A stretch of 51,940 nt of DNA. Origin: Escherichia phage MLP1. A program made the translations under genes and the position numbers. The stretch lies in sequence record NC_079176; one strand, written 5' to 3'. The notes under the pieces were generated by a model that saw only the letters and a list, made by a program, of their open reading frames with translations, did no database searches and was not told the DNA's origin. The stretch's first letter is position 1. Each line of letters starts with the position of its first letter. Shown in pieces: positions 26,251 to 45,035 of the stretch.

Positions 26251-26275
26251 GTTTCAACTAGTCTTAAGGTTGTAG

Positions 26276-26292: not shown

Positions 26293-26315
26293 TAACAAAC
26301 AATTTGGAGAATATC

Positions 26316-26480: not shown

Positions 26481-26531
26481 TTCCCAATATTCGAGCAATA
26501 TTACTGCATGTAGTATTGCTCCGATATTCGA

Positions 26532-26548
26532 CATTAGTTGGATGTGAA
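26532..26548 (+). promoter_or_regulatory. 17-bp motif copy CATTAGTTGGATGTGAA (consensus)
   Basis: Exact consensus. Confidence 0.4.
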
Positions 26549-27412: not shown

Positions 27413-27429
27413 AGACCAAATCTCTGTAA
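27413..27429 (+). promoter_or_regulatory. 17-bp motif copy CATTAGTTGcATGTGAA
   Basis: Read directly. Confidence 0.4.
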
Positions 27430-27698
27430 ATTCTGCTGAAATTGTGTGACAGATTTTAGAGAGATTATGTCTCCAAGCTAATCATTGTAGTTTTCGGCAC
27501 TTAATGTGTCACATATATAGCCTGTGAAAAACGTGTGGTTTATTGCTGGATTGCAACGCGCCCACCAGACTAGGAAGTCCATGATGGCGGCACACACAGG
27601 AATACTATATAACTCCCTGATTCTTTAAGGTGGATTAAGGTAATACAAGACCTCCACAATCGTTATGACGGGAGTTTTCTTTTAACTTAGGAGAATAA

Positions 27699-27950
27699 AT
27701 GGATACCATCAACAAACGTGCAAAATTTGCTGACCTGTCAGAAGGTCAAATCTTCACTTACAATTCTATCAAATGTATTAAGGTGGAAGGTGAGTGTGGT
27801 TTATACAACACTGTAAGATTTCATGACTCAAGCCGTGCATGTAAACTTAAAGACAGTGATGTTGTTGAAATTGAAATCGAATTAGAGCCAGATGGTTCAA
27901 ATGATGAAATCATTCTGCGTAAAACTGTTGGATACACTAAAGGATTCTGA
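27699..27950 (+). CDS. hypothetical early protein
   Basis: Strong ribosome-binding site TTAGGAGAATAAATG. Confidence 0.45.
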   Translation: MDTINKRAKFADLSEGQIFTYNSIKCIKVEGECGLYNTVRFHDSSRACKLKDSDVVEIEIELEPDGSNDEIILRKTVGYTKGF

Positions 27951-27951
27951 A

Positions 27952-28194
27952 ATGAATTATGCACTATATCAATATATCAATCGTGATGGTGTTGTTTCTC
28001 ATGCTTTGGTTAATACTAAAACCAGAGCAATAATGTTGGCAGACTTAATGTCTGGTGCATCAATTTACGAAAACAAGCTGGTGTGGAAGAATGCAGCGTA
28101 TCCTGAATACGTTTGGCAAGCAATCCAGAATGACAAACATCACAAAGTTGTGGCAACTGCCGCACATCCAGATTTCCTGAAAGTAAGAGGTTAA
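27952..28194 (+). CDS. hypothetical early protein
   Basis: ATG immediately after upstream stop; track start 27892 overlaps upstream gene. Confidence 0.4.
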   Translation: MNYALYQYINRDGVVSHALVNTKTRAIMLADLMSGASIYENKLVWKNAAYPEYVWQAIQNDKHHKVVATAAHPDFLKVRG

Positions 28195-28195
28195 C

Positions 28196-28384
28196 ATGGA
28201 CTTCATCGTCTACTTTAAGTTAAATGGTGTAGAGCAAAGTTTGTACTTCAATTCTTTACTTCGTTTGCAACAGTGGGCGGAGAAGTTTGTTGGTTATGAC
28301 TTTGATTACATCAACGCATGTACACCTGATGAACATGAGGAAATTGTGTTCAGTTCATTAAATCAGATTCTGGAGGCAAAATGA
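28196..28384 (+). CDS. hypothetical early protein
   Basis: 62-aa ORF, tight packing. Confidence 0.4.
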   Translation: MDFIVYFKLNGVEQSLYFNSLLRLQQWAEKFVGYDFDYINACTPDEHEEIVFSSLNQILEAK

Positions 28385-28554
28385 ACGACCAGCAATTCAA
28401 CACATTAATGCAGCAGATTAATCATCAAGAACTGATGAATGCCATCGAAGGCAAGAAGCCCGTCGAACGTAAATATCGTAAAATTGATAATTATATGCCA
28501 ACAATCATTGCATGTGTTGGTGTTGCCCTTGTTCTCTACTTCCTGGTGAAATAA
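28381..28554 (+). CDS. small membrane protein (57 aa, C-terminal transmembrane helix)
   Basis: ATGA overlap with upstream stop; IIACVGVALVLYFLV hydrophobic tail; below the ORF-track length cutoff. Confidence 0.35.
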   Translation: MNDQQFNTLMQQINHQELMNAIEGKKPVERKYRKIDNYMPTIIACVGVALVLYFLVK

Positions 28555-28641
28555 TGGATATCGTAAAGAAATTAGTATTCTGCATTTTAATGTTTCCTCT
28601 GGTGCTGCTCGTTATGGGCAGCTTCATGTACTTTAACTAAT
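28555..28641 (+). CDS. tiny hydrophobic peptide (28 aa)
   Basis: MDIVKKLVFCILMFPLVLLVMGSFMYFN; starts on upstream stop. Confidence 0.25.
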
Positions 28642-28656
28642 ACCTTAGGAGTTATT

Positions 28657-28920
28657 ATGGCTACCAAAACAGGCATGATGATTGTCCCAAGCCGTAATAA
28701 CTCTTTAAGCGGCTTTACACCGTATCGCATCTATCGTGTAATCTCAGGGACTGGCGAAGCGAATCTTTCAGAAGTTGCTTTGAAGCTAGGCAGGATGGTC
28801 CACTCCGACATTTCCTGTAACGTGCTCGACGATGAGGGAAAGATACGATTTGTTACAATGGATTTCTTCCGTGAATTTAAATTAGAATCTGAATTAGGAG
28901 TTTTGTACCATGAAATTTAA
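28657..28920 (+). CDS. hypothetical early protein
   Basis: 87-aa ORF with AGGAG ribosome-binding site. Confidence 0.4.
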   Translation: MATKTGMMIVPSRNNSLSGFTPYRIYRVISGTGEANLSEVALKLGRMVHSDISCNVLDDEGKIRFVTMDFFREFKLESELGVLYHEI

Positions 28921-29137
28921 ATGTGTTGCTTCCACCAAAGACTACGTTCCAGTTGGCCTAATCATCGAGGGTGAAGCTGTTTCACCTTTGGAATTTAAAG
29001 TTACCAAATCTGCTGAGGAGTTCTCTCCAGCATTTCGTAAAGGTGCTGTTGTTCCTATGAATGGTGCATTCTGGACATGGCAGCGTGACCATCGTGCAGA
29101 GTTTGCAGATATTTGTGGACAAGGTGTATTACAATGA
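28910..29137 (+). CDS. hypothetical early protein, paralogue A
   Basis: MKFKCVASTKDYVPVGLIIEGEAV resembles the next gene's N-terminus. Confidence 0.4.
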   Translation: MKFKCVASTKDYVPVGLIIEGEAVSPLEFKVTKSAEEFSPAFRKGAVVPMNGAFWTWQRDHRAEFADICGQGVLQ

Positions 29138-29364
29138 CAAAGTTTAAATGTGTAAAATCGTCTTCTTCATCTGAATACGCTCCGAAAGTTGGAGATGTGA
29201 TTGAAGGAGAACTAATCCACATACAGAGAAAACATGGAATAGACTCTCGAATAGTTATTTCGAATGTTGGAGACCGAATAGCTGTAAATGGAAGACCTTA
29301 TTGGAGCATTGGTGAAAAAGTTCCGCTAAAAGGTAGCATCTGGATTTGGAAAGAAGTCAAATAA
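29134..29364 (+). CDS. hypothetical early protein, paralogue B
   Basis: MTKFKCVKSSSSSEYAPKVGDVIEGELI; ATGA overlap; AAGGTG ribosome-binding site. Confidence 0.4.
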   Translation: MTKFKCVKSSSSSEYAPKVGDVIEGELIHIQRKHGIDSRIVISNVGDRIAVNGRPYWSIGEKVPLKGSIWIWKEVK

Positions 29365-29427
29365 TTTCCTCAACCATTCTTATAATGAGAGTGGTTGCTG
29401 AATATTATTAATTAACTTGGAGCATTT

Positions 29428-29715
29428 ATGAAACAACGTACTCGTTTACAACGTGACCCAGCCACAGGTCGCTTGTTGCCAGCATACTTGAAAGTTGGTG
29501 ACTTAGTTTACACTCGCGACTTTGCTTTTGATATTTGCCCAAGCAAAGTTTATGTAGTTCTTGCCACCAGCCTATCAAAGCCCAAAGTGCTGTTTGGTGC
29601 ACTTGAGCCAATTCAGTTGACCGGAACTCAATTTGTAATTAAAGATGAATCTGGTTGTAACCGTATCTTCAATCTCGAAGGTGGTTTGTCTAAATGGGAG
29701 AAAATTAAGCAATGA
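29428..29715 (+). CDS. hypothetical early protein
   Basis: 95-aa ORF with GGAG ribosome-binding site. Confidence 0.4.
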   Translation: MKQRTRLQRDPATGRLLPAYLKVGDLVYTRDFAFDICPSKVYVVLATSLSKPKVLFGALEPIQLTGTQFVIKDESGCNRIFNLEGGLSKWEKIKQ

Positions 29716-29999
29716 ACAAGAATTCGATTTTACGTTATGTTGGTGAAACCAATCACTACTTCACCAAAGGTAAGAAATACAAAGTCGTCGCTGGTCGTGG
29801 TGACGGTGTTCCCCGCAACAATGGTACACTCGGTGCGTATATTCAATCTCATTTGGGTTTTGTCGTTAATGATGATAACCTCAATTTATCTTATCGTACA
29901 TTCTCCAATTTGTGGGAGCTTGTGAAAGATTCTGGCGAAGTAAGCTGGTATAAGCCTGAATCAAATATGGACCCAATTCCTATTTCAAAGGTGATGTGA
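29712..29999 (+). CDS. hypothetical early protein
   Basis: ATGA overlap. Confidence 0.4.
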   Translation: MNKNSILRYVGETNHYFTKGKKYKVVAGRGDGVPRNNGTLGAYIQSHLGFVVNDDNLNLSYRTFSNLWELVKDSGEVSWYKPESNMDPIPISKVM

Positions 30000-30002
30000 G
30001 GA

Positions 30003-30107
30003 TTGAATATTAAATACCTAATACTGACACTTACTATTAGCGTTGCTATACTTACGATTGTTATAGGCTTTGCCAACCTGCTGCTATTACAAGCAGGAAT
30101 ATAAACT
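30003..30107 (+). CDS. possible tiny membrane peptide (34 aa, TTG start)
   Basis: Hydrophobic LILTLTISVAILTIVIGFANLLLL; non-ATG start, weak support. Confidence 0.2.
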
Positions 30108-30158
30108 GGCGCGTTAAATTAACAAGGAGCATTCATTGAGTGTTCCTGATTAATTCAA

Positions 30159-30175
30159 CATTAGTTGGATGTGAG
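30159..30175 (+). promoter_or_regulatory. 17-bp motif copy CATTAGTTGGATGTGAg
   Basis: 75 bp upstream of the SSB-tail gene. Confidence 0.4.
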
Positions 30176-30249
30176 AGAGACAAAGCTATTCCGTGGTTAG
30201 CAATGTCGCTGAAACTTAAACCGTAAATTAACTTAAGAGAATCTTAATC

Positions 30250-30627
30250 ATGGCACAATATTCAGACGTAAACACTGGCATCATCGGTTCCAATGGCTTC
30301 AAGAAAGACCCAAAACATCCTGACGTTCGTGGACGTATTAACGTTGACGGAATCTGGTATTGGGTGTCTGGTTGGAACAAGCAAGCCAATGGTAATGAAT
30401 TTACCTCGCTGGCACTCACCATCATGACTCAAGAACAGGTCGATGAAATGTTGCGTAAGCGTGAAGAGAAAGCTAAAGCCAAAGCTCAACCTCAAGCCGC
30501 AGCTCAACAGCACCAGCAAACTCAGCAACCTACTGCACAACAGCAAGCACCTGCCCAGCAACAGCCTCAGAGCAGTAACTATAATCCGAACGAGCCGAAA
30601 GACTTCGACGACGATATTCCATTCTAA
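30250..30627 (+). CDS. small protein with the host SSB C-terminal tail (ends DFDDDIPF)
   Basis: Last 8 residues match the E. coli SSB C-terminal tip; preceded by a Gln/Ala/Pro-rich low-complexity linker and a 70-aa Trp/Gly-rich N-terminal domain. Confidence 0.6.
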   Translation: MAQYSDVNTGIIGSNGFKKDPKHPDVRGRINVDGIWYWVSGWNKQANGNEFTSLALTIMTQEQVDEMLRKREEKAKAKAQPQAAAQQHQQTQQPTAQQQAPAQQQPQSSNYNPNEPKDFDDDIPF

Positions 30628-30640
30628 TTGGAGATGCCCT

Positions 30641-30760
30641 ATGAAAATTTTATGTTTTATAGGGCTACATAATTGGGAGATTTCTCATACAAACGATTAT
30701 GTAACCTTTTGGGTGTGTAAGCACTGTTCAGTAATGCGTGAGGAATATCATGGCAATTAG
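30641..30760 (+). CDS. small Cys/His-containing protein (39 aa)
   Basis: LCF..H..H....CKHC; below ORF-track cutoff. Confidence 0.25.
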   Translation: MKILCFIGLHNWEISHTNDYVTFWVCKHCSVMREEYHGN

Positions 30761-31655
30761 TGTTATCGAAATACCTGCAAATTTGGTCAAAACTGGCGAT
30801 GTTGTATTTCATGATGGCAGAGGGTATCCGATTGTCCACATCAACAGACTTAGTGATGTAGTTCAGCTACAACACTCTGGCGGATTCTTTAATTTTGAGT
30901 TGGGCCGTATAGTCAGAATATTAGACAAACGTCCCACTACAGAATCTTTTACAAAGCCTACCACAACCCGTGCAGTATTGGCGCATGAAGTACGACCTGG
31001 GAACATCTTATCTTACGGAATCAGATTCTTTGAGATAAAGGAAGTTAAAGACCTTGGGGAAATACCTGAAAATGTGGTTCGATTAACCCATGTAACAGGA
31101 TACTTTGACTTTTCACCCAACCGCATAGTCCACATTGTTAATACGCCACCAGCACAGGAAACTCCTACGGTGAAGTTCGATACTCAGATAAAGCCAGTAT
31201 TCCTTCCATATGAGGAAGCAGTGAAACCATTCTCAGATGAAGAGGATGTTAAAGGTGCTGATGTGGAAGTTGGTGATGTTATCTGGTTTAAGGGTAATTG
31301 GGCAACTGTTACAAATGTGTACAAGCACCCAAACTCACCATACAATAAAGTCAATATCGAACACGGCGACGTAAAAGGTTTGCAAGTACGTCTGGTATTA
31401 ACTGGAACTTATTCAAGAAAGGTAAGAGCAGTAATGGAAACTTTAAATATCCAAAATGCAATCGAAGCACAACGTATTCTTCTGCAAAAGCTAGAGCAAA
31501 TGCTTGACTTACAGCAACTTGCACCAACAGCAGATGGCAAGATTGCAATCGGCAACTGTAACATTCGCGTGGACAAGGCATCAATCGTTAAAGCCGCACG
31601 GGATGAAATGAAAGTTGCCGCAAGCAAATCCGCAGAGCTTATTAAGAAGCTGTAA
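30750..31655 (+). CDS. hypothetical protein (about 301 aa)
   Basis: ATG 30750 with GAGGAA ribosome-binding site; track start is GTG 30738. Confidence 0.45.
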   Translation: MAISVIEIPANLVKTGDVVFHDGRGYPIVHINRLSDVVQLQHSGGFFNFELGRIVRILDKRPTTESFTKPTTTRAVLAHEVRPGNILSYGIRFFEIKEVKDLGEIPENVVRLTHVTGYFDFSPNRIVHIVNTPPAQETPTVKFDTQIKPVFLPYEEAVKPFSDEEDVKGADVEVGDVIWFKGNWATVTNVYKHPNSPYNKVNIEHGDVKGLQVRLVLTGTYSRKVRAVMETLNIQNAIEAQRILLQKLEQMLDLQQLAPTADGKIAIGNCNIRVDKASIVKAARDEMKVAASKSAELIKKL

Positions 31656-31699
31656 TTAACAGAGGTCATTCCACTTCGAGTGGCCTCGATTAATTATTA

Positions 31700-31709
31700 G
31701 GGGGGGGGG
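31700..31709 (+). repeat. poly-G tract (G10) in the Shine-Dalgarno position of the next gene
   Basis: Counted directly; 4 nt upstream of ATG 31714. Confidence 0.6.
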
Positions 31710-31713
31710 AATT

Positions 31714-31935
31714 ATGGCAAGTTATTATGCGACAATGCTTACACGAGATTTGAAAGGTGAGTTGAGCGATGCTTGTGGTAGCTTTGGAAATATAGCTATC
31801 GACGGAAGACTGACTTTGCAAAATGCTATTTCAGTTGCTAGAGAAAGTCTTTCAAAAGAGAGTGGATACGAGGGATTTAAAATAGAACTCTTATCCAGAC
31901 CTTGGGCATATAGAAATCCACTTGTAACGAAGTAG
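31714..31935 (+). CDS. hypothetical protein
   Basis: 73-aa ORF. Confidence 0.35.
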   Translation: MASYYATMLTRDLKGELSDACGSFGNIAIDGRLTLQNAISVARESLSKESGYEGFKIELLSRPWAYRNPLVTK

Positions 31936-31937
31936 TC

Positions 31938-32288
31938 ATGAAAACTTTATACATTGCACTAACAATTTTGTTTGGAGTATTCGCATTCAAATCAGAAGCA
32001 TCTGTTCGCAGCTTCCAGTGTGGCGGGTACAAAATGTCCGTTGAAACAATTACAATGAGCCAGCCGCTCATTGCAACAATTTCTTTGCACGAAGGTACTT
32101 GGATTGAGATTCCAGATAACGGAAACCCCAACCCAATGTCAACAGTGTTTTACAATACACAGAGCAGTAAGCTGGCCTTAGTTGGTGTTGACGCTGAGGA
32201 ACGTTTGGTGCTGCAGATTTACCGTGACATTGACTTCTTTCATGCCAAATTTCCATTGTTATCAACCTATTGTAAGGAAGTTAAATGA
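31938..32288 (+). CDS. secreted/periplasmic hypothetical protein
   Basis: N-terminal signal-like MKTLYIALTILFGVFAFKSEASV. Confidence 0.4.
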   Translation: MKTLYIALTILFGVFAFKSEASVRSFQCGGYKMSVETITMSQPLIATISLHEGTWIEIPDNGNPNPMSTVFYNTQSSKLALVGVDAEERLVLQIYRDIDFFHAKFPLLSTYCKEVK

Positions 32289-32518
32289 CGTCATCCGAAT
32301 TTACCATTGATGGGGTTCAATACCTGCTGGAATCCAATTGCGAGTATCGCCATTGGGCAGTAATTCACGACCGAGTTGTAAAATACTTGGAACGTGTGGG
32401 GAAGGAAACTGCTAAACCTATGTTGTTTGAGGCAACAGTTATTGGAACAACCTCAATCAATAAGGAGTTAGTATCCTTCAAATTAACCATTCACCCTAGT
32501 GGGAATAGCTTTCAATGA
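32285..32518 (+). CDS. hypothetical protein
   Basis: ATGA overlap. Confidence 0.35.
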   Translation: MTSSEFTIDGVQYLLESNCEYRHWAVIHDRVVKYLERVGKETAKPMLFEATVIGTTSINKELVSFKLTIHPSGNSFQ

Positions 32519-32790
32519 TTTCAATTGACCAAGTTCCAGTTGAGTTGAGTAAGGCAAAAGGTAAGTTGGACAATGCCAAATCCGACTTGTCGACCTTTGA
32601 TTTAAATGCTCCAGCCGATAAAGTTAAAGTTTTCATCGACTGTATTGACGGATGGGTGCTTATTGAGCATGGAGTCCTTCGAGCATTACTTGTTGATGAA
32701 GTTGCCAAGGCTCAGAAAGCATTTGATGAACTTGATAACCTCAACACACTGTTAAACAATACTTTAAACGATGCGTTAAAGGGTAAATAA
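32515..32790 (+). CDS. hypothetical protein
   Basis: ATGA overlap; helical and charged. Confidence 0.35.
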   Translation: MISIDQVPVELSKAKGKLDNAKSDLSTFDLNAPADKVKVFIDCIDGWVLIEHGVLRALLVDEVAKAQKAFDELDNLNTLLNNTLNDALKGK

Positions 32791-33185
32791 TGAATGTTAA
32801 GCTCGGTCAACGTTCTTTAGACCGACTTAAGGGAGTAAATCCTTCATTAGTTGCAGTTTTCAAACGGGCATGTGAAACCATGCCTTTTGATGTAACTGTT
32901 TTGGAAGGTTTACGCTCTTATGAACGTCAACAAGAACTGTTAAAGCAGGGTGCAACCAAAGTTTCTGTTAGCCGACACATGTCAGGCAACGCTTTGGACA
33001 TTGCACCATATCCAATTGACTGGAATGACCTTGAACGATTCCAAATTGTGGCTGAACACATGTTCAAAGCCGCAGAAGAGCTTGGAATTACTATTCGTTG
33101 GGGTGGAACATGGGAACGTTCATTCACTAAGCCAGTGAAATGGGCTAAATTCCTTGACGCACCTCATTTCGAACTTCCAGCATAA
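32790..33185 (+). CDS. peptidase M15 endolysin (L-alanyl-D-glutamate peptidase, T5-type)
   Basis: SRHMSGNALDIAPYPIDWNDLERF and GITIRWGGTW align with T5 endolysin GDAIDFAPYINGKIDWNDLEAF and GIKLRFGADW. Confidence 0.7.
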   Translation: MNVKLGQRSLDRLKGVNPSLVAVFKRACETMPFDVTVLEGLRSYERQQELLKQGATKVSVSRHMSGNALDIAPYPIDWNDLERFQIVAEHMFKAAEELGITIRWGGTWERSFTKPVKWAKFLDAPHFELPA

Positions 33186-33205
33186 CTTCATCAATGGAGC
33201 ATCCG

Positions 33206-33484
33206 ATGGAATATCAGGAAATACCGAAAGAATTAGAGCGTATGCAGGAGCGTACGTCTCGTGCAGAGGCAGAACTCCACCAACATTTGTCAAATCATGT
33301 GCAAGATTCCCGTAGTCTGAGACACGAAATTGAGGTTGGCAGATGCTGCTATCTAGTAACATATGAAGAGAAGACCGCCATCCTGGACATACTAGTAAAG
33401 GGCGGGAAAGGGCGAATCGAACAGCTCAAAATCCTTAATATGGAACTTCAAGGTATGTGGGAGAAACTCAATGCAAAACGATAA
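33206..33484 (+). CDS. hypothetical protein
   Basis: ATG 33206 has GGAG ribosome-binding site (track start 33194 lacks one). Confidence 0.35.
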   Translation: MEYQEIPKELERMQERTSRAEAELHQHLSNHVQDSRSLRHEIEVGRCCYLVTYEEKTAILDILVKGGKGRIEQLKILNMELQGMWEKLNAKR

Positions 33485-34019
33485 CATTACTAAAGCAGTG
33501 GAACAACTTAAGTCCTGGCGTAGAGATGAAACATTATTGGTTCGTTTCTACACAGGCGAAACTAATTCTGAATTTGAAGATGCGTGGATTGATGGTCTGG
33601 CATGGCGGCTCTATGACTTCAACATGTCAGAATATTTGCACGAAGAATATGGCATCGAGTACCCAGAAACAGGGACTTATGACATTCTCGAATCAAACGA
33701 AGAAGATGTTACAGAAATTTGCTTTGTTGATGGACTGTTCAGCATTCGCAGATATGACAAGTTCAACGAACTGCTTACTGACACTGACTTGGATATAATT
33801 CTTGCTGCATTCCGTAGCGATGAAATTGACATTTTCACTGTTGACGACTTGAACGACATGTTCATCACACGTTGCGACTCAATTGCAGACTATTTCAAGC
33901 AAAGTGAAGCACTGGATATTCCAGACCGCCTTGCACCATACATTGATTGGGAAGCAATTGTGAAAGACTTCGGCAGTGACTACATCTTCTCCGAAGGAGT
34001 ATTGTTCTTAAATGTGTGA
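33471..34019 (+). CDS. ardA: ArdA-like antirestriction protein (acidic DNA mimic), tentative
   Basis: Strongly acidic 182-aa protein; C-terminal YIDWEAIVKDFGSDYIFSEGVLF resembles the ArdA C-terminal block as recalled from memory. Confidence 0.45.
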   Translation: MQNDNITKAVEQLKSWRRDETLLVRFYTGETNSEFEDAWIDGLAWRLYDFNMSEYLHEEYGIEYPETGTYDILESNEEDVTEICFVDGLFSIRRYDKFNELLTDTDLDIILAAFRSDEIDIFTVDDLNDMFITRCDSIADYFKQSEALDIPDRLAPYIDWEAIVKDFGSDYIFSEGVLFLNV

Positions 34020-34248
34020 TTTAAATATTAACTCGGTCAAGCCAGAAGATATTCTCTTCCACCAGCCACGCGGCCACTACTATCGAATCCTGTTTGCTAC
34101 AAAGATTAAAACTCACTGCGGTCAGTGGGTAGATGGTTTTGCTTACCAGGAAGTTAAGAAGTATGGAAATCATACTTTCTTTGGTGTTGATTCGATAATT
34201 TATTCAAGACCAAAGGAACTGTTTGACTCAGATTGGAAAACACTATAG
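34012..34248 (+). CDS. hypothetical protein
   Basis: 78-aa ORF overlapping upstream stop. Confidence 0.35.
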   Translation: MCDLNINSVKPEDILFHQPRGHYYRILFATKIKTHCGQWVDGFAYQEVKKYGNHTFFGVDSIIYSRPKELFDSDWKTL

Positions 34249-34318
34249 TTCCAGGCGGGTTTCTTCGAAGTGCCAAGCGGGTTTTGTACTCGCATTGGCC
34301 TTCGGCTTTAGTCTGAAA

Positions 34319-34334
34319 CATTAGTGGGATTTGA
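34319..34334 (+). promoter_or_regulatory. diverged 17-bp motif copy (CATTAGTgGGATtTGA)
   Basis: Shares TCTGAAACATTAGT upstream context with the 34463 copy. Confidence 0.3.
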
Positions 34335-34462
34335 TTCTGACCTCTTAGGGAAGAAAGGCATTATACACCTATCGCCAAATGGGTGTCAAGAACTTTCTTC
34401 ATTTATTTTAATTTATTCTTATTATTATTCTTTTTGTTTGGAATATTGGAATAATTCTGAAA

Positions 34463-34479
34463 CATTAGTTGGAATTGAA
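34463..34479 (+). promoter_or_regulatory. 17-bp motif copy CATTAGTTGGAaTTGAA
   Basis: Lies in an 860-bp ORF-poor gap, about 630 nt upstream of the next gene. Confidence 0.35.
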
Positions 34480-35112
34480 GAAACAACATCATGTAAGCAA
34501 ATTGACTTCGTGTAGAAATCTACACTGGATTACAGGTTCGATGCCTGTGGGAAGTTAGTTTGCTTTCAGATGGAATGTTTCCATCAAATACACTTATCTT
34601 TTAACATAGGCCAAAGGGCCAGAATACTTCTTCGCAGAAGCTATCCACTTGTTATAGGTCAATGTATTGGGATGAATTGGTACTGAATAAGCAAGCTGTT
34701 AGGGCTGAATAATTAGAGGGTTATGCCTCATGCTTATGTTAGTCATTCGAAAATAGGTTTGTGCCACAAGCCGCTGGTGCTCCGAGAAAGTCGGACAAAC
34801 AGGGCTTAGAGTGGCATATTCCACACAAAACCGAGCCACCAGCTACGCCAACGCTGGGATTTGGGTGAATGTATTGGGGGAGGATTATAAAGCCTCTGTG
34901 GACTGTATGTGAATCCTAAGCACCAGTTGCCGAAGGGCTACAGGACGCACCCTAACGGGAATAATCCTCCACCAATGCAGTTATCCAGAATTGACACAAA
35001 CGGTAGGCAGCGGCCCGATTTTCGGCCTTCCTGCGCTACTCTGTGGCCTGTTTCATGGCCAAAAGATGAGAAGAGAAGTCACAAACACTGAATCGAAAAT
35101 TGGAGAGTTCCT

Positions 35113-35433
35113 ATGATTCGCAAGCATTCTGCTAAAGTTTTGACATTAAGAAATGTATTAACGTCCGTTCTAAGTGGGGAAGGTGAGGAAGAAACAATCC
35201 ACTTCGTCCTTGTTGGTGGACTTTGGTACTACAACGGCACCAACGACTTTACAGTAGGAATTTCGGAGAAAGATGGGTTCTGGAAGCACACTTTCAAAGA
35301 CATACTCGAAAGCAGTGCTAAATACACACTTGGGGAAGTTAAGAAATACTTCTACCTCGGGCCAAACAAGTCCATGCAAATTGCAACTCGCGAGTGGACA
35401 ACTAACCAAGAAGTTTACGGAGTCCCATTTTGA
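35113..35433 (+). CDS. hypothetical protein
   Basis: GGAG ribosome-binding site. Confidence 0.4.
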   Translation: MIRKHSAKVLTLRNVLTSVLSGEGEEETIHFVLVGGLWYYNGTNDFTVGISEKDGFWKHTFKDILESSAKYTLGEVKKYFYLGPNKSMQIATREWTTNQEVYGVPF

Positions 35434-35720
35434 ACTTACAAGACAAATCCAAAGAAGAGTTGATTGAGATTATCCAGAAAGAGCACGAACTCGCTGGCAT
35501 CACAATTAACTTTGAACTCCAGGCAATGCAAGCTGTTGCTTTGGGTCATGGCCTAATGGCTACACTCATTCATGCCAAGAATGTGTTAGGCGTTAACGAC
35601 GAAAAATACCAAATTCTGGAGAAAGCTGCGCAAGAGCGGATTTCGCAGTGCTTGGTTACATTAGTTGATTTGGGAATCGACGCAGAAACTGCGAACAAAC
35701 GTATCCTACAAGGCCACTAA
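35430..35720 (+). CDS. hypothetical protein (TTG start overlapping upstream stop)
   Basis: tTGA overlap, same coupling pattern as at 4401. Confidence 0.3.
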   Translation: MNLQDKSKEELIEIIQKEHELAGITINFELQAMQAVALGHGLMATLIHAKNVLGVNDEKYQILEKAAQERISQCLVTLVDLGIDAETANKRILQGH

Positions 35721-35721
35721 A

Positions 35722-36396
35722 ATGTCTTATCATGATGATGACAAAGAGATTGCACTATCAACGTGCAAGCAATGGCTCAATGATAATGATGCCGTCTATC
35801 TTGCCAAGGAAGATGTTATCATTATGTGGGTCCATTTTAATCCAGAATCGAAGCGCGGTGAGTGGCAACGTTACAAGATGAAAGAGGCTTGTCGCATAAT
35901 TAAAGCCACACGCGCTGGCTTCTCTGCTATGAAATATATCAAGCCAGAGATGCTGATGCTTGCTGCACAGGAAGAAGAACGTGCATATAAGCAAGCTGTT
36001 AAATCCCGTTCAACTGTTCCTCCAGAGTTCTTTAATTTGGAGCGCGCTGGTCACTTCAACAATTTAGAAATGTTGACACTGTGCCTGTTGCAAGAATTAG
36101 TTGGAAGAGGACAAAACATTGAAGCTGTTTGCCTTGGGGAACTCATGAAAGAGTTGTTCTTGACAAAGGGCTTTGCTGTACCAAACCGAACTTTACGCTG
36201 GAAATTGTTGCGAGCAGTCGCGCAAGAAGCTGGTGTAGTTGTTCGTGACAGAACCAACCGACTTACCATTACGGGAGTTGGGCGTTTTGTAGCAATCCAG
36301 ATTGAGGGTTATGACGAATCAATCATCACTGAACTCACTGTCGCTGAGACAAAGGATTTGGTAATCAAAACAATCGAACGATTCAATATGTATTGA
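35722..36396 (+). CDS. hypothetical protein (224 aa)
   Basis: ATG directly after upstream stop; track start 35665 overlaps upstream gene. Confidence 0.4.
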   Translation: MSYHDDDKEIALSTCKQWLNDNDAVYLAKEDVIIMWVHFNPESKRGEWQRYKMKEACRIIKATRAGFSAMKYIKPEMLMLAAQEEERAYKQAVKSRSTVPPEFFNLERAGHFNNLEMLTLCLLQELVGRGQNIEAVCLGELMKELFLTKGFAVPNRTLRWKLLRAVAQEAGVVVRDRTNRLTITGVGRFVAIQIEGYDESIITELTVAETKDLVIKTIERFNMY

Positions 36397-36426
36397 GTCG
36401 TTTGTTAAATCAGAGCAGTCCTGACA

Positions 36427-36443
36427 CATTAATTGGATGTGAA
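36427..36443 (+). promoter_or_regulatory. 17-bp motif copy CATTAaTTGGATGTGAA
   Basis: 78 bp upstream of ATG 36521. Confidence 0.4.
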
Positions 36444-36520
36444 AAGAGAAAGGCTCTTTAATTTTATCTACAGTCACGTCACCGTGGCGTGCAAAACTAT
36501 TTAATATAAGGTATATACAA

Positions 36521-36859
36521 ATGGCTAAGATTGTAACCGTAACTCAGTACGAAGCTAACGATGGTTCCCTGTTCCTGAGCGAAGCTGAGTGTAACGCACA
36601 CGATTTTAAACTGGAAAACGGCGCTAAAATTGATGCTGCTGTTGAAGCGTTCGCAAACACCAACAAACTGATTGACCGTTCTCGCTCAATGCAGACCAAT
36701 ACCGCTGCTGCATTCCTGGCATTCTATCTGCCGTGGGTTGAAGCCGGTTGTCCGGAAGTTGAACGTGTTGCGTTCGACACCGTGAAAGAAGTTAAGGTCG
36801 AAGAAGAAGCTGCTGTTGCAGTAGCAGAAGCTGCTGTTGAAGAAGCTCCGGTATTCTAA
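36521..36859 (+). CDS. abundant-looking small protein with acidic C-terminal tail ending in Phe
   Basis: Codon choice like highly expressed E. coli genes (CTG, CGT, GAA, ACC); C-terminus VEEEAAVAVAEAAVEEAPVF; motif plus AAGGT ribosome-binding site upstream. Confidence 0.5.
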   Translation: MAKIVTVTQYEANDGSLFLSEAECNAHDFKLENGAKIDAAVEAFANTNKLIDRSRSMQTNTAAAFLAFYLPWVEAGCPEVERVAFDTVKEVKVEEEAAVAVAEAAVEEAPVF

Positions 36860-37724
36860 ATCGATCTGGCGTGCACTGGAAGTTGTCCGGTGCTGCCTTG
36901 AACCCATTCCCAAGAGTGAGTGGGCTTCAATGAGCATTCTTGTGATTAGAGTTGGGAGGTAGGCCGATGCCCAATCTCGTGGCCCCGACAAGAGTGTTCA
37001 TTGAAGTAGTTTTCTGAGTCTTACGACGGGCCTAAACTGCCTGAAGTTATTGCGACTGTTTTATTCATTTAAAATAAATGCAAACGATTCTGAAATGCGA
37101 GTTGCAGCTTAATTAAATTTAAGTTCTCTCCGTGGTCTTCCAATCCCATGTAACCAAATTTGGCGCATTGTGGCTTCGAGATGTGATTAATAAATCGGAG
37201 CAATAATTAATTTGTATTCTGCGATGTAATGCAGACTTAAGTCCCTCAGTGCGCGTAGGGATGTGACAGAGTACAAACTTAATTATGCAGTTGGATATTT
37301 CCGGAGGACGGACGAGCACACTGGAATGTCTTCAATTGGTTTAGTGTGAGAAGCTATGCCAATGTGGAACGTAACTCCTTGAGGAAGTGCTCCTTTGGAT
37401 TTCCCTCCACACAGGAATCTCAAGCCTGTGGCAGCGACTTCGAAGCTGCACTGTATAACCTAATTCGCCCTAAAGTGAATTGCCCTGAGTATGGAAATAA
37501 ACTGCTCTAACCAATGGTTTCCACAACGGTGGAATAAATTAGGTTGCCTGTTGGTACTTGGGTTCAACACCTGCTTGCACTCGCAAAGTAGTGCCTCGTA
37601 CCTGAGATGAAGTGAGTCGGGACCATCAATCCACGGCAGGCCGAAGATACCAAACAGGCGGCTCACTGATTCTACAAGCCTCGCAGTTCGGGAAAACCTG
37701 CGTTACCAAAACCCACCAAATTTT

Positions 37725-37817
37725 GGACGAGTAGCTCAGAAGGTCTGCTCCAGAGCTTAGTCAGGTAGAGCAATCTGTTCGACAGATGTGTCGTTGGTTC
37801 GAACCCAACCTCGTCCA
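37725..37817 (+). tRNA. tRNA-like gene with insertion; isotype undetermined
   Basis: Perfect 7-bp acceptor pairing GGACGAG/CTCGTCC, canonical T-arm GTTGG-TTCGAAC-CCAAC, UA at positions 8-9, D-arm TAGCTCAG...GGTAGAGC split by about 22 nt; candidate anticodon stem ATCTG/CAGAT encloses only 5 nt. Confidence 0.45.
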
Positions 37818-37843
37818 CCCTTAACAACAAACATGGAGTCCTC

Positions 37844-37984
37844 ATGGATTTTGATGCACTTGATAACTTAGACTTCGGTGCTGCCGAAGAGGCAATTGAA
37901 GAACTTAAGAAGAAGCAGGACGAAGAAGCAATCGTTCCTGGTGCTGGTGATAACGACTGCTCAAGTGGTGCGTGTGCCATCTAA
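37844..37984 (+). CDS. small acidic peptide (46 aa), hypothetical
   Basis: GGAG 5 nt upstream of ATG; below ORF-track cutoff. Confidence 0.3.
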   Translation: MDFDALDNLDFGAAEEAIEELKKKQDEEAIVPGAGDNDCSSGACAI

Positions 37985-37992
37985 GGTGATTC

Positions 37993-38229
37993 ATGCAACA
38001 GCTTAAGGCAATATTTCTTGGCGTCTTGACTGCATTGGGAATTCTATTTGCAGTGTTCCTCAAAGGCAGAAGCTCAGGCAAAGCCGAGGAGCGTCAGGAA
38101 GCCAAAGAGAAGCAATTCGATTCGTTAAAAGAATCTATCGAGATTAAATCGCATGTTCAGAAAGAAGTGTCTAGCAGTTCTGATAGCAATGTCGATAGTG
38201 AGTTGCTCTCAAAGTGGGTTCGTAAGTGA
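37993..38229 (+). CDS. i-spanin (Rz-like) candidate
   Basis: N-terminal transmembrane segment AIFLGVLTALGILFAVFL then charged helical region; overlapped by a lipoprotein ORF. Confidence 0.5.
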   Translation: MQQLKAIFLGVLTALGILFAVFLKGRSSGKAEERQEAKEKQFDSLKESIEIKSHVQKEVSSSSDSNVDSELLSKWVRK

Positions 38230-38365
38230 TTACTGCTTGATTGCACAACCAATCTATTTGGATGTTGCAGAAGTGAAAGTTTTGTCGCGCGAAACCAAAA
38301 CCCAGATTTTAGTCCACAATGAAACGTGGGCACAAAAGTGTTCTAACTTACCCGACAGTGAGTGA
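38153..38365 (+). CDS. o-spanin (Rz1-like outer-membrane lipoprotein) candidate
   Basis: Signal peptide with lipobox-like IVSC; starts inside the i-spanin gene in another frame. Confidence 0.5.
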   Translation: MFRKKCLAVLIAMSIVSCSQSGFVSDYCLIAQPIYLDVAEVKVLSRETKTQILVHNETWAQKCSNLPDSE

Positions 38366-39215
38366 ACAAATGCTCGCCATCGCATAAACAACATTTGGCA
38401 GTCCGGTACGGGACTTTAAATACACGTATATTATAGTCGAGGGAGTGTGCGACTTTAAATAACGAGACTCTAGCTACTTGTAGCATAGTAGGTGTAATTC
38501 CTGCAATTGCTCTGGGCATAACAATTGAAATTGCTGCCTCCGAGGACGGAAGCCCCGTATTGAATGCGTGAAATTCAGGTAGTCACTTCCTAGAACAGTG
38601 GCCGGGAACAGACCTAGACAAAAGTGCTTGAGAACGTTAGCTCTGTCTTGCCAGCATTAATGGCACGTTGGCCGCGTAAAGGCCACAGCGTCTGACCAAC
38701 GTATCGGCCACCAAATTCAATGGATTCGTAGAGTTAATGAAACCTGCACGATGGGATAGGGATGAAGCATCCGAGGCCGACTGTGTAATTGTGAACGCGG
38801 AGTTCACCGAATCCACCATTTTCCAAACAGTTATGCCTCTGTTCAAAAGGCTCAAGTTAGCGTCTGGCATACCGTAGCGATACGGCTCAGTTGCGCTGAT
38901 TGTGATGTGTCGAAAGAAAGTTCAGGCTTTCATTTGAGCTACTCCTCTTCTCGAAGTTAGCTGGATTCAAAATCCAGACTATGTTCCTATTCACATGAAA
39001 TATGCAAGCCAGGGTTCTTAATATCTGACATAGGTATTAAGCGGGTTTATACTTTTCCCCGATGGTCCCCATAAACAAGGCTGATTCACTTGGGCGGTTC
39101 GAATCAAATTTAATAAGTGTCTTGGCCGCAGTGGAAACACCATTTAAGCCAATATATTGTAATGTTCGTAATAGTCCACGTCAGGGCACTTACTTAAATT
39201 TAACTGGAGAGAAAC

Positions 39216-44171: not shown

Positions 44172-45035
44172 ATGGCATTTGCTGCTCCTACTCTGGCCTC
44201 GAACAAGACTCCTTCTGCTGCACCATTACTGGAAGCGGGTGGTTATCCTGCTCGTGTCTGCCGTATTATCGACCTGGGCTTACAGCCAGGCTCTGCTAAA
44301 TATCCAAACCCATCTCTGAAACTTCTGGTCACTTTCGAGCTGCTCGACGAGTACATGAAAGAAGTTGATGGCAATGGTGCTATGGTCATGGTCCAAGACC
44401 CGGACGAAGATGACGGCGTAATGATGGCGAAGAATCTTGAAGACAAGCCGCGTTGGTTTGACTTTGAGTTTACCTACAACGCTGACGGCTTCATGGGTGA
44501 CAACTCTCACATCTACAAATTCGCTAAAGCGATTGATGCGCTGGAAGTTAAACAGAATCTGGAACAAGGTATTCAGGGCCACCCTGCTAAGAACCTGCCA
44601 GATTGGTTGACCGAGCCTCTGGTTGTTGGCATTGTTCAGTATACCAAGCAGTCTGGCAAGAATGCTGGTCAGGTTGCAAACAAGGTTGCTACCTTCTCCC
44701 CAATGAAGTCTAAAGAGAAGAAAGAGGCCAAAGCTCTGGTTAACCCGACTGTGTTCTTCGACATGTCTGAGCCAGACCTAGAAGTGTTCAACAAGCTGCC
44801 TGGTGGCGATTCTCCTTACGCAATCAAGAACCGCATTACTGGCGGTGTTGACTTCTACAAAACCAAACTGTCTGTCCTGTTGGGCGGCAAACCTGCTGAT
44901 GATTCTGTTCCGAATCAGGCTTCTGATGAAGAGGTTGATGCAGCAATGAAGGCTGAACTGGAAGCTCAGGCTGCTGCAAAAGCACAGCGTGAAGCGGAAG
45001 GTGGTGCTGCTGGCGGCACTGGAATGCCGTTCTGA
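44172..45035 (+). CDS. abundant-looking replication-module protein, possibly ssDNA-binding
   Basis: Host-like optimal codons; Ala/Glu-rich C-terminal region ending GTGMPF; sits between polymerase and exonuclease; no diagnostic motif. Confidence 0.3.
   Translation: MAFAAPTLASNKTPSAAPLLEAGGYPARVCRIIDLGLQPGSAKYPNPSLKLLVTFELLDEYMKEVDGNGAMVMVQDPDEDDGVMMAKNLEDKPRWFDFEFTYNADGFMGDNSHIYKFAKAIDALEVKQNLEQGIQGHPAKNLPDWLTEPLVVGIVQYTKQSGKNAGQVANKVATFSPMKSKEKKEAKALVNPTVFFDMSEPDLEVFNKLPGGDSPYAIKNRITGGVDFYKTKLSVLLGGKPADDSVPNQASDEEVDAAMKAELEAQAAAKAQREAEGGAAGGTGMPF

What the first reader, a model, noticed from the sequence alone, without database searches (positions are those of the whole stretch)
36521..36859. 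Highly expressed-looking early protein with an acidic, Phe-terminated tail
The gene has a motif copy, a good ribosome-binding site and codon choice like top-expressed E. coli genes. The protein ends in an Ala/Glu-rich tail with a terminal Phe, a feature of DNA mimics and of ssDNA-binding proteins that use an acidic tail to contact partners.
Basis: inference. Interest (0 to 1): 0.45.

Follow-up and report, generated by a model that had tools for sequence, protein, structure and literature searches.

The report
Abundant acidic protein with Phe-tipped tail
Every phage of the Chaseviridae family encodes this small, very acidic protein and appears to make it in very large amounts; it carries a floppy acidic tail that ends in an almost invariant phenylalanine, the hallmark of tails that dock onto DNA-replication and repair proteins, but its partner and its job are still unknown.

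Summary
Window 36521-36859 (+) is a real 112-aa gene, the ortholog of phiEcoM-GJ1 gp29 ("hypothetical"). It lies 83 nt downstream of one of seven + strand copies of the phage-RNAP promoter motif. Its codon adaptation is the highest of 69 ORFs in the window (CAI 0.71, z +3.8), above the major capsid gene. Orthologs in Erwinia and Aeromonas phages also rank first, so the bias is a selected trait. The Shine-Dalgarno pairing is only average.

The gene is a near-universal Chaseviridae core gene (106 GenBank genomes) with fixed synteny. The protein has a β-hairpin plus two-helix domain, a conserved VERTxFDTPK segment, and a variable 26-41-aa Ala/Glu/Val/Pro acidic linker. In 47 of 50 close homologs it ends exactly in Phe.

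No Pfam, PDB or BFVD relative exists. Resemblance to the SOS protein YebG is topological and sub-threshold, so membership is not met.

Best reading (inference, about 0.4): a very abundant protein whose tethered C-terminal tip docks into a partner pocket, as the SSB and T7 gp2.5/gp4 tails do. A structured DNA mimic is less likely.

Side result: 150 nt downstream lies an undescribed, covariation-supported tmRNA-like RNA (tag ANDSEMRVAA*) with no recognisable tRNA-like domain.

The parts
36421..36440 (+). Phage-RNAP-type promoter motif (core ACATTAATTGGA at 36426-36437), ortholog of GJ1 'putative phage promoter 7'
   Evidence: 7 + strand copies in the window against 0.61 expected. The same position is annotated as a promoter in phiEcoM-GJ1. 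A related motif, GCATTAGCTGAATGTGAAAGG, lies upstream of the Erwinia Y2 ortholog.
36441..36520 (+). 5' leader: A/U-rich, weakly structured, with Shine-Dalgarno UAAGG at 36507-36511 (9 nt before the AUG)
   Evidence: leader MFE is not different from shuffles (z -0.75). SD duplex -4.0 kcal/mol, rank 34 of 65. The -30..+30 region is the 8th least structured of 65.
36521..36859 (+). CDS, 112 aa, ortholog of phiEcoM-GJ1 gp29 (PHROG 17419, unknown function)
   Evidence: CAI rank 1 of 69. Core gene of Chaseviridae.
36521..36745 (+). Residues 1-75: folded domain made of a beta-hairpin (about 10-18, motif YEAxDGSxF) and helices 21-47 and 52-74. Invariant D14 G15 S16 F18 F29 L31 I37 N46 D52 R53 R55 N60 F65 L66.
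   Evidence: AF2 model, (pLDDT 80-90 over the helices). Alignment A1.
36746..36787 (+). Residues 76-89: conserved extended segment G-x-P-x-VERTxFDTPK (invariant G76 E81 R82 D86 K89), predicted non-helical
   Evidence: the segment is also conserved in remote relatives, e.g. IERTVFDS, VERTVFDT, IARTVFDD.
36788..36844 (+). Residues 90-108: low-complexity acidic Ala/Glu/Val linker, predicted disordered, variable in length and sequence among homologs
   Evidence: pLDDT 50-58. (tails 26-41 aa, net charge -4 to -9).
36845..36856 (+). Residues 109-112: C-terminal tip A-P-V-F-COOH. The family consensus is P-[VLM]-F, and Phe is the last residue in 47 of 50 close homologs.
36868..36897 (+). Stable 3' hairpin immediately after the stop codon, followed by a second hairpin at 36898-36930. 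It has no U-tract, so it is a processing or stabilising element or a phage-RNAP terminator rather than an intrinsic terminator.
   Evidence: z -2.4; strong 3' structures follow the orthologs in GJ1, Y2 and pAh6-C (z -2.3 to -3.2), and AAUCGAUCUGG is shared; no intrinsic terminator found.

Best explanation
The gene is a monocistronic-looking, phage-promoter-driven, pre-replicative gene selected for very high output.

Its product is a small acidic protein with three parts:
- a folded beta-hairpin plus helical-hairpin domain of about 75 aa;
- a conserved extended VERTxFDTPK segment;
- a flexible acidic 'fishing-line' linker carrying a short C-terminal tip, P-[VLM]-F-COOH here and [DE][DE]-[LM]-F in remote relatives.

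The most likely mechanism is that the tip inserts its terminal Phe, and where the Phe is last also its carboxylate, into a hydrophobic pocket with a basic rim on a partner protein. This is how the E. coli SSB C-terminal tip (DDDIPF) and the acidic, Phe-terminated tails of T7 gp2.5 and gp4 work. The acidic linker provides reach and electrostatic steering.

Because the protein is made in large excess and is not itself a DNA binder, it would act in one of two ways. It could be a stoichiometric competitor that occupies tip-binding pockets on host or phage replication/repair proteins. Or it could be an adaptor that brings whatever its N-terminal domain binds to that hub.

Shown: the anatomy, the conservation pattern, the expression signals, and the presence of canonical PF-tipped tails on this phage's SSB and on a replication-associated protein. 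Inferred: the docking itself, the identity of the partner, and whether the outcome is competition or recruitment.
For: - Invariant terminal Phe on an otherwise freely drifting, disordered acidic linker. This is the signature of a tethered short linear motif.
- Remote relatives keep acidic residues plus [LM]-F at or near the C-terminus, and one ends in ...EDSIPF, the SSB-type tip.
- The phage's own SSB ends in DFDDDIPF, identical to E. coli SSB. The highly codon-adapted 287-aa replication-associated protein next to the DNA polymerase ends in GMPF (VIPF in Erwinia Y2, NPFD in pAh6-C). So tip-docking is in use in this replication system.
- The conserved position is just upstream of the primase/helicase and family A polymerase module in both subfamilies.
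- Top codon adaptation in three genera fits a protein needed in stoichiometric excess.
- The protein is acidic throughout (pI 4.4; domain 4.65), which argues against direct DNA coating.
Against: - No partner is identified and no complex could be modelled with these tools.
- The tip differs from the canonical SSB-Ct: P-V-F instead of I-P-F.
- In many remote relatives 1-3 residues follow the Phe. That is hard to reconcile with recognition of the free carboxylate of a terminal Phe, as in SSB-Ct pockets.
- The phage primase/helicase lacks a T7 gp4-type tail, so the T7 analogy is incomplete.
- High abundance is inferred from codon usage and signals only.
- The SD is merely average.
Confidence: 0.4

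Rival explanations
1. Autoregulated nucleic-acid- or protein-binding factor of YebG type. The N-terminal domain, with its conserved N46 / D52-R53-x-R55 / N60 / R82 / K89 cluster, is the working part. The acidic tail folds back onto it as an intramolecular shield that a ligand must displace, as in T7 gp2.5, T4 gp32 and E. coli SSB. The terminal Phe would then anchor the tail in cis rather than on a partner.
For: - Same order and positions of secondary-structure elements as E. coli YebG, which also ends in a disordered acidic tail.
- hhalign of the diverse family profile against YebG gives 75% probability, E 2.5e-5, over 43 columns.
- YebG is the only Pfam family hit recurrently: 12 of 50 and 7 of 40 members.
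- JGI named one homolog 'dsDNA-binding SOS-regulon protein'.
- The invariant basic and polar residues cluster at the inter-helix loop.
Against: - All Pfam YebG scores are 15 bits or less against a cut-off of 27.5.
- No PF07130 protein appears among 96 profile hits in 5.8 billion sequences.
- The YebG model is of low confidence (pLDDT 56).
- The domain itself is acidic (pI 4.65).
- YebG has no terminal Phe, and its own function is unknown, so the analogy predicts little.
Confidence: 0.17
2. Host replication inhibitor acting on the beta sliding clamp. The tip, [DSE]-[LM]-F in remote relatives and P-[VLM]-F here, acts as a degenerate clamp-binding motif. It blocks the hydrophobic cleft of DnaN and shuts down clamp-dependent host synthesis, while the T7-like phage polymerase needs no clamp.
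For: - Remote tips such as EEDMF, EDDLF and DSLFL share the last three residues with QL[SD]LF-type motifs and with the internal QADMF of Pol III alpha (motifs from my own knowledge; tips).
- Residues after the Phe are tolerated, as for clamp motifs.
- The phage replication module has a family A polymerase and a primase-helicase, and no clamp gene was seen.
- A weak motif would require very high abundance to compete.
Against: - The defining Gln, and the Leu at position 2, are absent from the window's tip (EAPVF).
- Where a Gln occurs in relatives (QPLF, QDLF) it is one position off.
- Val at the penultimate position is atypical.
- There is no direct evidence.
Confidence: 0.1
3. DNA mimic. The acidic surface imitates the DNA backbone and sequesters a DNA-binding host protein such as a restriction or defence enzyme, a nucleoid protein or RNA polymerase, as Ocr, ArdA and T7 gp5.9 do.
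For: - Net charge about -11 over 112 aa, pI 4.4.
- Small, pre-replicative and probably very abundant, like T7 Ocr.
- It sits among host-takeover genes: an ArdA-like gene is 2.5 kb upstream, and a T7 gp5.9-like gene is a neighbour in a related phage.
Against: - About half of the excess charge lies in a disordered linker of variable length and sequence, not in a rigid array of carboxylates.
- The most conserved positions are hydrophobic, Asn, Arg or Lys, not Asp or Glu.
- No fold or sequence similarity to any known mimic.
- It does not explain the invariant terminal Phe.
Confidence: 0.12
4. Adaptor or anti-adaptor for a protease or chaperone, with the architecture of SspB: a folded domain, a long flexible linker and a short C-terminal docking peptide. 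It might be functionally linked to the tmRNA-like RNA encoded 150 nt downstream, whose tag ends in ...VAA.
For: - The architecture matches tethering adaptors.
- The gene is adjacent to, and probably co-transcribed with, the tag-encoding RNA in Cleopatravirinae phages.
Against: - In Aeromonas phage pAh6-C the RNA lies 2.3 kb away.
- At least 100 prophage-type contigs carry the RNA, whereas the protein's close family and every genome match found were Chaseviridae or Chaseviridae-like; I did not search the prophage loci themselves for this protein.
- The tip is acidic and hydrophobic, unlike the basic ClpX-binding motif of SspB (from my own knowledge).
- No sequence similarity to SspB, ClpS or RssB.
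Confidence: 0.06

Closest known systems
C-terminal tip of bacterial SSB (SSB-Ct, ...DFDDDIPF) and the acidic Phe-terminated tails of T7 gp2.5 and gp4
   Same: A disordered linker ends in an acidic stretch with a C-terminal Phe that is conserved while the linker drifts. The setting is a phage replication context. This phage's own SSB carries the exact E. coli tip.
   Different: The folded part is not an OB fold or a helicase, and it is acidic. The tip is P-[VLM]-F rather than [IL]-P-F. The linker is Ala/Glu/Val-rich rather than Gly/Gln/Pro-rich. In remote relatives the Phe is often followed by 1-3 residues.
YebG (Pfam PF07130, COG3141), an SOS-induced E. coli protein of unknown function
   Same: About 100 aa. 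An N-terminal beta-hairpin carries the x-F-x-[ST]-x-x-E-A-x-A-[HY]-[DE] motif, followed by two long helices and a disordered acidic C-terminal tail. Element positions almost coincide. hhalign gives 75% probability over the first 43 columns.
   Different: Never reaches the Pfam threshold (15 bits or less against 27.5). No YebG appears among the profile hits. YebG lacks the VERTxFDTPK segment and the terminal Phe. YebG is LexA-regulated and chromosomal, whereas this gene is phage-promoter-driven and restricted to one phage family.
Phage DNA mimics (T7 Ocr, ArdA, T7 gp5.9)
   Same: Small, strongly acidic, expressed before replication, probably abundant.
   Different: No similarity in sequence or predicted fold. 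The acidity lies largely in a disordered, variable tail. The conserved terminal aromatic residue is not a feature of the mimics.
Tethering adaptors such as SspB (folded domain, flexible linker, short C-terminal docking peptide)
   Same: The same three-part architecture and the same logic of a conserved tip on a variable tether.
   Different: Unrelated sequence. The tip chemistry is opposite: acidic/aromatic here against hydrophobic/basic LRVVK in SspB. There is no evidence of protease involvement.

Membership tests
PHROG 17419 (phage protein family, unknown function) | Full-length match to the family profile | tested here: met
   E 1.9e-54, residues 1-112 on profile positions 1-119. The family carries no functional annotation.
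YebG (Pfam PF07130) | Score at or above the Pfam gathering threshold (27.5 bits) | tested here: not met
   no hit for the window protein; weak hits in 12 of 50 and 7 of 40 relatives, best E 0.008, individually reported scores 12.5-14.8 bits, always limited to profile positions 17-58.
YebG (Pfam PF07130) | Bona fide YebG proteins recovered by a profile of this family | tested here: not met
   of 96 hits at E <= 1e-3 among 5.8 billion proteins, none carries PF07130; 46 hits in the exhaustive search of 1.84 billion representatives; no YebG link was seen when they were scanned against Pfam.
YebG (Pfam PF07130) | Profile-profile similarity over the whole domain | tested here: inconclusive
   hhalign probability 75%, E 2.5e-5, but over only 43 columns (hairpin plus helix 1); probability 2-4% with the shallow close-family profile.
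YebG (Pfam PF07130) | Same fold topology (beta-hairpin, two helices, acidic disordered tail) | tested here: inconclusive
   elements are E10-11, E17-18, H21-47, H52-74 in the target against E7-9, E17-19, H22-44, H51-74 in YebG. The YebG model has pLDDT 56, and no superposition tool or AFDB library was available.
YebG (Pfam PF07130) | LexA (SOS) regulation | not tested
   The gene sits behind a phage-RNAP-type promoter, and no sigma-70-like promoter lies nearby. A LexA box was not searched for.
SSB proteins with an SSB-Ct tip | OB-fold ssDNA-binding domain | tested here: not met
   the model is a hairpin plus two helices; no SSB Pfam hit. The genuine phage SSB is a different gene, 30250-30627.
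SSB proteins with an SSB-Ct tip | C-terminal consensus [DE][DE][DE]-[IL]-P-F-COOH | tested here: not met
   the tip is E-E-A-P-V-F, with Pro at -2 rather than -1. The close family is mostly P-[VLM]-F. Only one remote relative (P0238) ends in D-S-I-P-F.
T7 gp2.5 / gp4-type acidic tails | Disordered acidic C-terminal tail with a conserved C-terminal aromatic residue | tested here: met
   net charge -4 to -9, pLDDT 50-58, Phe is last in 47 of 50. This is a functional motif class, not a homologous family.
T7 gp2.5 / gp4-type acidic tails | Tail binds the phage DNA polymerase | not testable with these tools
   No multimer modelling or binding assay is available.
Beta-clamp-binding motif proteins (QL[SD]LF) | Gln at position 1 and an aliphatic residue at position 2 of a pentapeptide ending in L-F | tested here: not met
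   the window tip is E-A-P-V-F. Relatives with Gln have it at -3 (QPLF, QDLF), not -4.
DNA mimic proteins (Ocr, ArdA) | Rigid fold displaying a DNA-like array of carboxylates; similarity to a known mimic | tested here: not met
   no similarity to any known protein or fold; the acidity is concentrated in a disordered, variable linker. Surface-charge geometry of the domain was not analysed.

The most novel reading that the evidence does not exclude
The protein is a phage-adapted offshoot of the YebG fold, produced in vast excess to flood the cell with tethered SSB-tip-like peptides. These would jam the pockets through which host SSB recruits repair, restart and nuclease proteins (or the beta clamp cleft), which would be a previously undescribed 'interactome-jamming' takeover strategy. 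As a by-product it would give the first functional handle on YebG, one of the most strongly SOS-induced genes with no known function. A still bolder version links it to the adjacent tmRNA-like RNA in a single highly transcribed module that rewires host quality control.
Probability: 0.12. Interest if true: 0.8.

Novelty: new variant of a known kind. Interest (0 to 1): 0.5.

Why it matters
The most codon-optimised gene of a whole phage family, ahead of the capsid gene in the three genera tested, has no known function. That alone marks it as a priority target.

If the tail is a docking tip, the protein would show a cheap and evolvable way for a phage to compete for, or plug into, the hubs that organise bacterial replication and repair. 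Its tip peptide would then be a natural lead for inhibitors of SSB or clamp interactions, which are already being pursued as antibacterial targets.

If the YebG resemblance is real, it makes the function of a long-unexplained SOS protein experimentally approachable.

The adjacent tmRNA-like RNA without a recognisable tRNA-like domain was found while checking the flank. It is shared by virulent Chaseviridae and many prophage-type contigs, and may be of greater interest than the protein itself.

Tried and rejected
- Pfam, NCBIfam and PDB sequence searches with the single protein and with family profiles found nothing above threshold.
- YebG membership was tested five ways and is not supported (see the membership table). 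The JGI name 'dsDNA-binding SOS-regulon protein' on one homolog rests on that weak resemblance.
- A bacterial origin for the homologs on 0.45-1.2 Mb contigs is rejected. The local context there is a Chaseviridae-like phage genome.
- Two IMG/VR pattern scans with remote relatives found nothing, and the diverse alignment was too variable for the locus finder.
- An intrinsic terminator after the gene is rejected: there is no U-tract.
- A strong Shine-Dalgarno sequence is rejected: it is average.
- The large proteins with 5-10 repeats of the hairpin motif (P0227, P0228) were uninformative; the only hit is an SLH domain in one.
- Literature searches for YebG function, for Chaseviridae expression data and for SSB-tail mimics found no relevant data.
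- For the side RNA, a canonical tmRNA is rejected. ARAGORN finds none in 45 loci, Rfam scores are 20-23 bits against thresholds of 47-50, and most copies have no T-arm within 420 nt.

Full report
**Identity of the window and of the gene.**

The window is a circularly permuted genome of a phiEcoM-GJ1-like myovirus (Chaseviridae, Carltongylesvirus). The region 35000-38500 is 92-96% identical to many Escherichia and Yersinia phages of this group. The ORF 36521-36859 (+), 112 aa, exists exactly as described. It is the ortholog of GJ1 gp29, annotated 'hypothetical protein'.

**Checking the observation.**

- **Promoter motif.** GJ1 'putative phage promoter 7' lies just upstream of gp29. Its core in the window, ACATTAATTGGA, is at 36426-36437, 83 nt before the ATG. 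The core (ACATTARTTGGA, at most 1 mismatch) occurs 7 times, all on the + strand and all between 23.9 and 36.4 kb. Chance expectation is 0.61, and 0 of 100 shuffles reach 7.
- **Codon usage.** That is rank 1 of 69 + strand ORFs, z = 3.8, ahead of the major capsid gene at 0.615. All Leu codons are CTG and all Pro codons are CCG.
- **Codon usage in relatives.** I rescored every ORF against each phage's own capsid and sheath genes, so that the test is not an E. coli-specific accident. The ortholog is again first in the window (z 2.6), in Erwinia phage vB_EamM-Y2 (z 3.3) and in Aeromonas phage pAh6-C (z 2.4). Extreme codon adaptation is therefore a conserved, selected property of this gene.
- **Ribosome-binding site.** This is the one overstated element. 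UAAGG pairs with the anti-SD at only -4.0 kcal/mol, rank 34 of 65. The start region is unusually unstructured (rank 8 of 65), and the second codon is GCU.
- **3' end.** A stable hairpin (36868-36897) and a second one follow the stop (z -2.4). Orthologs in GJ1, Y2 and pAh6-C also have strong 3' structures. No intrinsic terminator is present.

**Distribution.**

The protein has 86 close homologs in 5.8 billion proteins. An exhaustive profile search of 1.84 billion representatives finds only 46 hits at E <= 1e-3.

tblastn with two remote members hits 106 GenBank phage records, all 51-56 kb. Their genus counts almost equal those obtained with the major capsid protein: Escherichia 36 vs 37, Erwinia 22 vs 22, Aeromonas 21 vs 22, Yersinia 8 vs 8, Shewanella 5 vs 5.

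The gene is thus a near-universal core gene of both Chaseviridae subfamilies. Synteny is fixed: a 224-240-aa gene, then this gene, then after a variable interval the primase/helicase and the family A DNA polymerase. Homologs on 0.45 and 1.2 Mb 'bacterial' contigs sit in the same phage context.

**Anatomy of the protein.**

The alignment of 50 close homologs (A1) and the AF2 model (mean pLDDT 75) give three modules.

- **Residues 1-75.** A beta-hairpin (YEAxDGSxF) followed by helices 21-47 and 52-74. There is an invariant polar cluster: N46, D52-R53-x-R55 and N60.
- **Residues 76-89.** A conserved, non-helical G-x-P-x-VERTxFDTPK segment, which is also kept in remote relatives.
- **Residues 90-112.** A low-confidence linker ending in A-P-V-F.

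Across the close family the tail is 26-41 aa long with net charge -4 to -9. Its composition is Ala 25%, Glu 20%, Val 13% and Pro 9%, and its sequence is unconserved. Even so, 47 of 50 proteins end exactly in Phe, mostly P-[VLM]-F.

Most remote relatives keep [DE][DE]-x-[LM]-F, sometimes with 1-3 residues after the Phe. One ends in EDSIPF. The whole protein is acidic (pI 4.4), and so is the folded domain alone (pI 4.65).

**What it is not, and the YebG lead.**

One homolog bears the JGI name 'dsDNA-binding SOS-regulon protein', which is the COG name for YebG. I fetched E. coli YebG and tested the link.

- **Pfam.** The YebG model is the only family hit recurrently (12 of 50 and 7 of 40 members), but with best E 0.008. 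The individually reported scores are 12.5-14.8 bits against a threshold of 27.5.
- **hhalign.** The diverse profile against a YebG alignment gives 75% probability, E 2.5e-5, over only 43 columns.
- **Profile search.** No PF07130 protein appears among 96 hits of the diverse profile.
- **Structure.** A low-confidence YebG model (pLDDT 56) has the same elements at nearly the same positions, plus a disordered acidic tail.

Conclusion: the architecture is YebG-like and distant homology is possible, but membership is not established. YebG itself is strongly SOS-induced, 41-fold in Salmonella, and has no known function (PMC8072944).

**Mechanism.**

A fixed terminal residue on a freely evolving, disordered, acidic tether is the signature of a tethered docking peptide. 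The same phage uses such tips.

- Its SSB ends in DFDDDIPF, identical to the E. coli SSB tip. This also holds in Erwinia Y2.
- The 287-aa protein next to the polymerase ends in a Gly/Ala-rich tail tipped GMPF (VIPF in Y2, NPFD in pAh6-C). It has a sub-threshold match to a 'phage replication initiation protein' family and is among the most codon-adapted non-structural genes.

The best-supported reading has two parts. The Phe tip of gp29 docks into a partner pocket in the manner of the SSB-Ct and T7 gp2.5/gp4 tails (their mechanisms are from my own knowledge). And the protein, abundant and not itself a DNA binder, competes for or recruits to a replication/repair hub.

Some facts weigh against a strict SSB-Ct mimic. 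The order is P-V-F rather than I-P-F, and remote relatives tolerate residues after the Phe.

Rivals are an autoinhibitory cis-acting tail on a YebG-type binding domain, a degenerate beta-clamp motif, a DNA mimic, and an SspB-like adaptor. None is excluded. The DNA-mimic idea fits the disordered, variable nature of the acidic part least well.

No expression or interaction data exist for this family.

**A side result in the flank.**

The 1.1 kb after the gene has no convincing ORF. Sensitive Rfam scans gave sub-threshold tmRNA hits (20-23 bits against thresholds of 47-50). They are confined to the sequence AUAAAU-GCA-AAC-GAU...GCN-GCN-UAA.

That 10-codon frame reads:

- ANDSEMRVAA* in the window (37080-37112), GJ1 and a metagenomic relative;
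- ANDNEMRAAA* in Erwinia Y2;
- ANDDLMLAAA* in Aeromonas pAh6-C;
- for comparison, E. coli ssrA reads ANDENYALAA*.

In three of five lineages no in-frame start codon precedes the frame.

The pattern occurs in at least 120 viral contigs, with ANDDLMMVAA* in 76 of them. Most are prophage-type contigs where it lies about 370-400 nt upstream of a tRNA cluster.

An alignment of 32 representatives (A6) shows:

- a helix enclosing the end of the tag and the stop codon;
- a following hairpin;
- two pseudoknots, the second across an invariant GAUUAAUAA.

On this five-helix structure 92.6% of cells pair, against 69.5% in shuffles (0 of 500 reach it) and 35-50% when the partners are slid. Of 21 pairs, 20 show compensatory double changes.

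ARAGORN finds no tmRNA in any locus, and Rfam finds nothing at gathering thresholds. Most copies have no T-arm within 420 nt. The tag peptides are absent from the searchable literature. The tmRNA Website census lists only mycobacteriophages and Bacillus phage G as phages with ssrA (PMC4131195).

This looks like an undescribed tmRNA-like RNA: an mRNA-like domain plus pseudoknots, without a recognisable tRNA-like domain. In the window its core is 37003-37200, probably on the same transcript as the target gene. I found no evidence tying its function to the protein. In pAh6-C the two are 2.3 kb apart. The RNA also occurs in many prophage-type contigs, whereas the protein's close family and every genome match I found were Chaseviridae or Chaseviridae-like.

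**Verdict.**

- **Observation:** confirmed, apart from the RBS strength.
- **Interpretation:** partly supported. High expression and a partner-contacting tail are well-founded inferences. 'SSB-like' and 'DNA mimic' as identities are not supported.
- **Novelty:** a new variant of a known kind, namely a tethered acidic Phe-tipped docking tail on a previously uncharacterised, YebG-like domain.
- **Interest:** moderate, and higher if a partner is found.

Noticed in passing
window 37003-37200 (+), tag frame 37080-37112; also L001 6314-6346, L004 8509-8541, L011 9423-9455, L010 31846-31878, and at least 120 IMG/VR loci (L014-L133): An undescribed tmRNA-like structured RNA lies 150 nt downstream of the target gene. 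It has a conserved 10-codon tag-like frame (ANDSEMRVAA*, against E. coli ssrA ANDENYALAA*) with no in-frame start codon in 3 of 5 lineages, a helix enclosing the stop codon, a hairpin and two pseudoknots. The covariation test gives 92.6% of cells paired against 69.5% in shuffles, and 20 of 21 pairs show compensatory changes. No tRNA-like domain is recognisable. ARAGORN and the Rfam gathering thresholds both miss it. It is shared by Chaseviridae and many prophage-type contigs, where it sits about 370-400 nt upstream of a tRNA cluster. The tag peptides are absent from the searchable literature, and the tmRNA Website census of phage ssrA does not list such phages.
   Followed up: yes
window 37725-37819 (+); L001 6959-7053: A 95-nt tRNA-like element. 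It has an acceptor stem GGACGAG/CUCGUCC, a good T-arm, and about 20 extra nt on the D-arm side. GenBank calls the GJ1 copy tRNA-Arg ('may contain an intron'), while ARAGORN calls it tRNA-Leu(CAG). In the window ARAGORN finds nothing, and Rfam tRNA scores 25.6 bits, below the threshold of 29.
   Followed up: partly
window 30250-30627, 44172-45035, 35113-35433, 26085-26222: Four ORFs end in hydrophobic-Pro-Phe; I estimate about 0.15 expected by chance. The SSB ends in DFDDDIPF, identical to the E. coli SSB tip. The 287-aa protein after the DNA polymerase ends in GMPF; this tip is conserved as VIPF in Erwinia Y2 and NPFD in pAh6-C, and the protein has a sub-threshold match to NF046043 'phage replication initiation protein'. 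A 106-aa protein ends in GVPF (also in GJ1), and a small ORF ends in EIPF. This suggests a shared C-terminal docking signal among the phage's replication proteins.
   Followed up: partly
window 36860-37000; L011 8992-9160: Between the stop codon and the tmRNA-like core lie conserved elements: AAUCGAUCUGG and GAGUGGGCUUC. In Erwinia Y2 the second reads GAGUGGGCUUCUGGAUGAUUCGAA, which resembles the 5' end of E. coli tmRNA (GGGGCUGAUUCUGGAUUCGAC, quoted from memory). In Y2 a T-arm-like UUCGGUUCAAGUCCGAA lies 105 nt after the tag. It is followed by CUCAGGC, whose perfect complement GCCUGAG lies 372 nt upstream.
   Followed up: partly
window 23955-36437: All seven copies of the phage promoter core lie between the RNA polymerase gene and the target gene. 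None precedes the replication or structural genes, so the late genes must use a different, unrecognised promoter class or read-through.
   Followed up: no
L010 31746-31795 and 31957-32010 (Aeromonas phage pAh6-C): Two copies of a hairpin followed by CUCUAUGGUAUGUUUA flank the tmRNA-like element, each preceded by GCAUAACUCGAG. They may be promoter or terminator units of this subfamily.
   Followed up: no
GenBank PP952070.1 (hit H73): 'Staphylococcus phage Pel53', host given as Staphylococcus hyicus, has a major capsid protein 97.3% identical to this coliphage's, in a 53.7 kb genome. The host attribution looks doubtful.
   Followed up: no
proteins P0227 (704 aa) and P0228 (818 aa): Large proteins carrying 5 and 10 copies of the about 22-aa N-terminal hairpin motif (x-DG-x-x-F-x-[ST]-x-x-EA-x-x-H). 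One also has an S-layer homology domain. The hairpin is thus a reusable module outside this family.
   Followed up: partly
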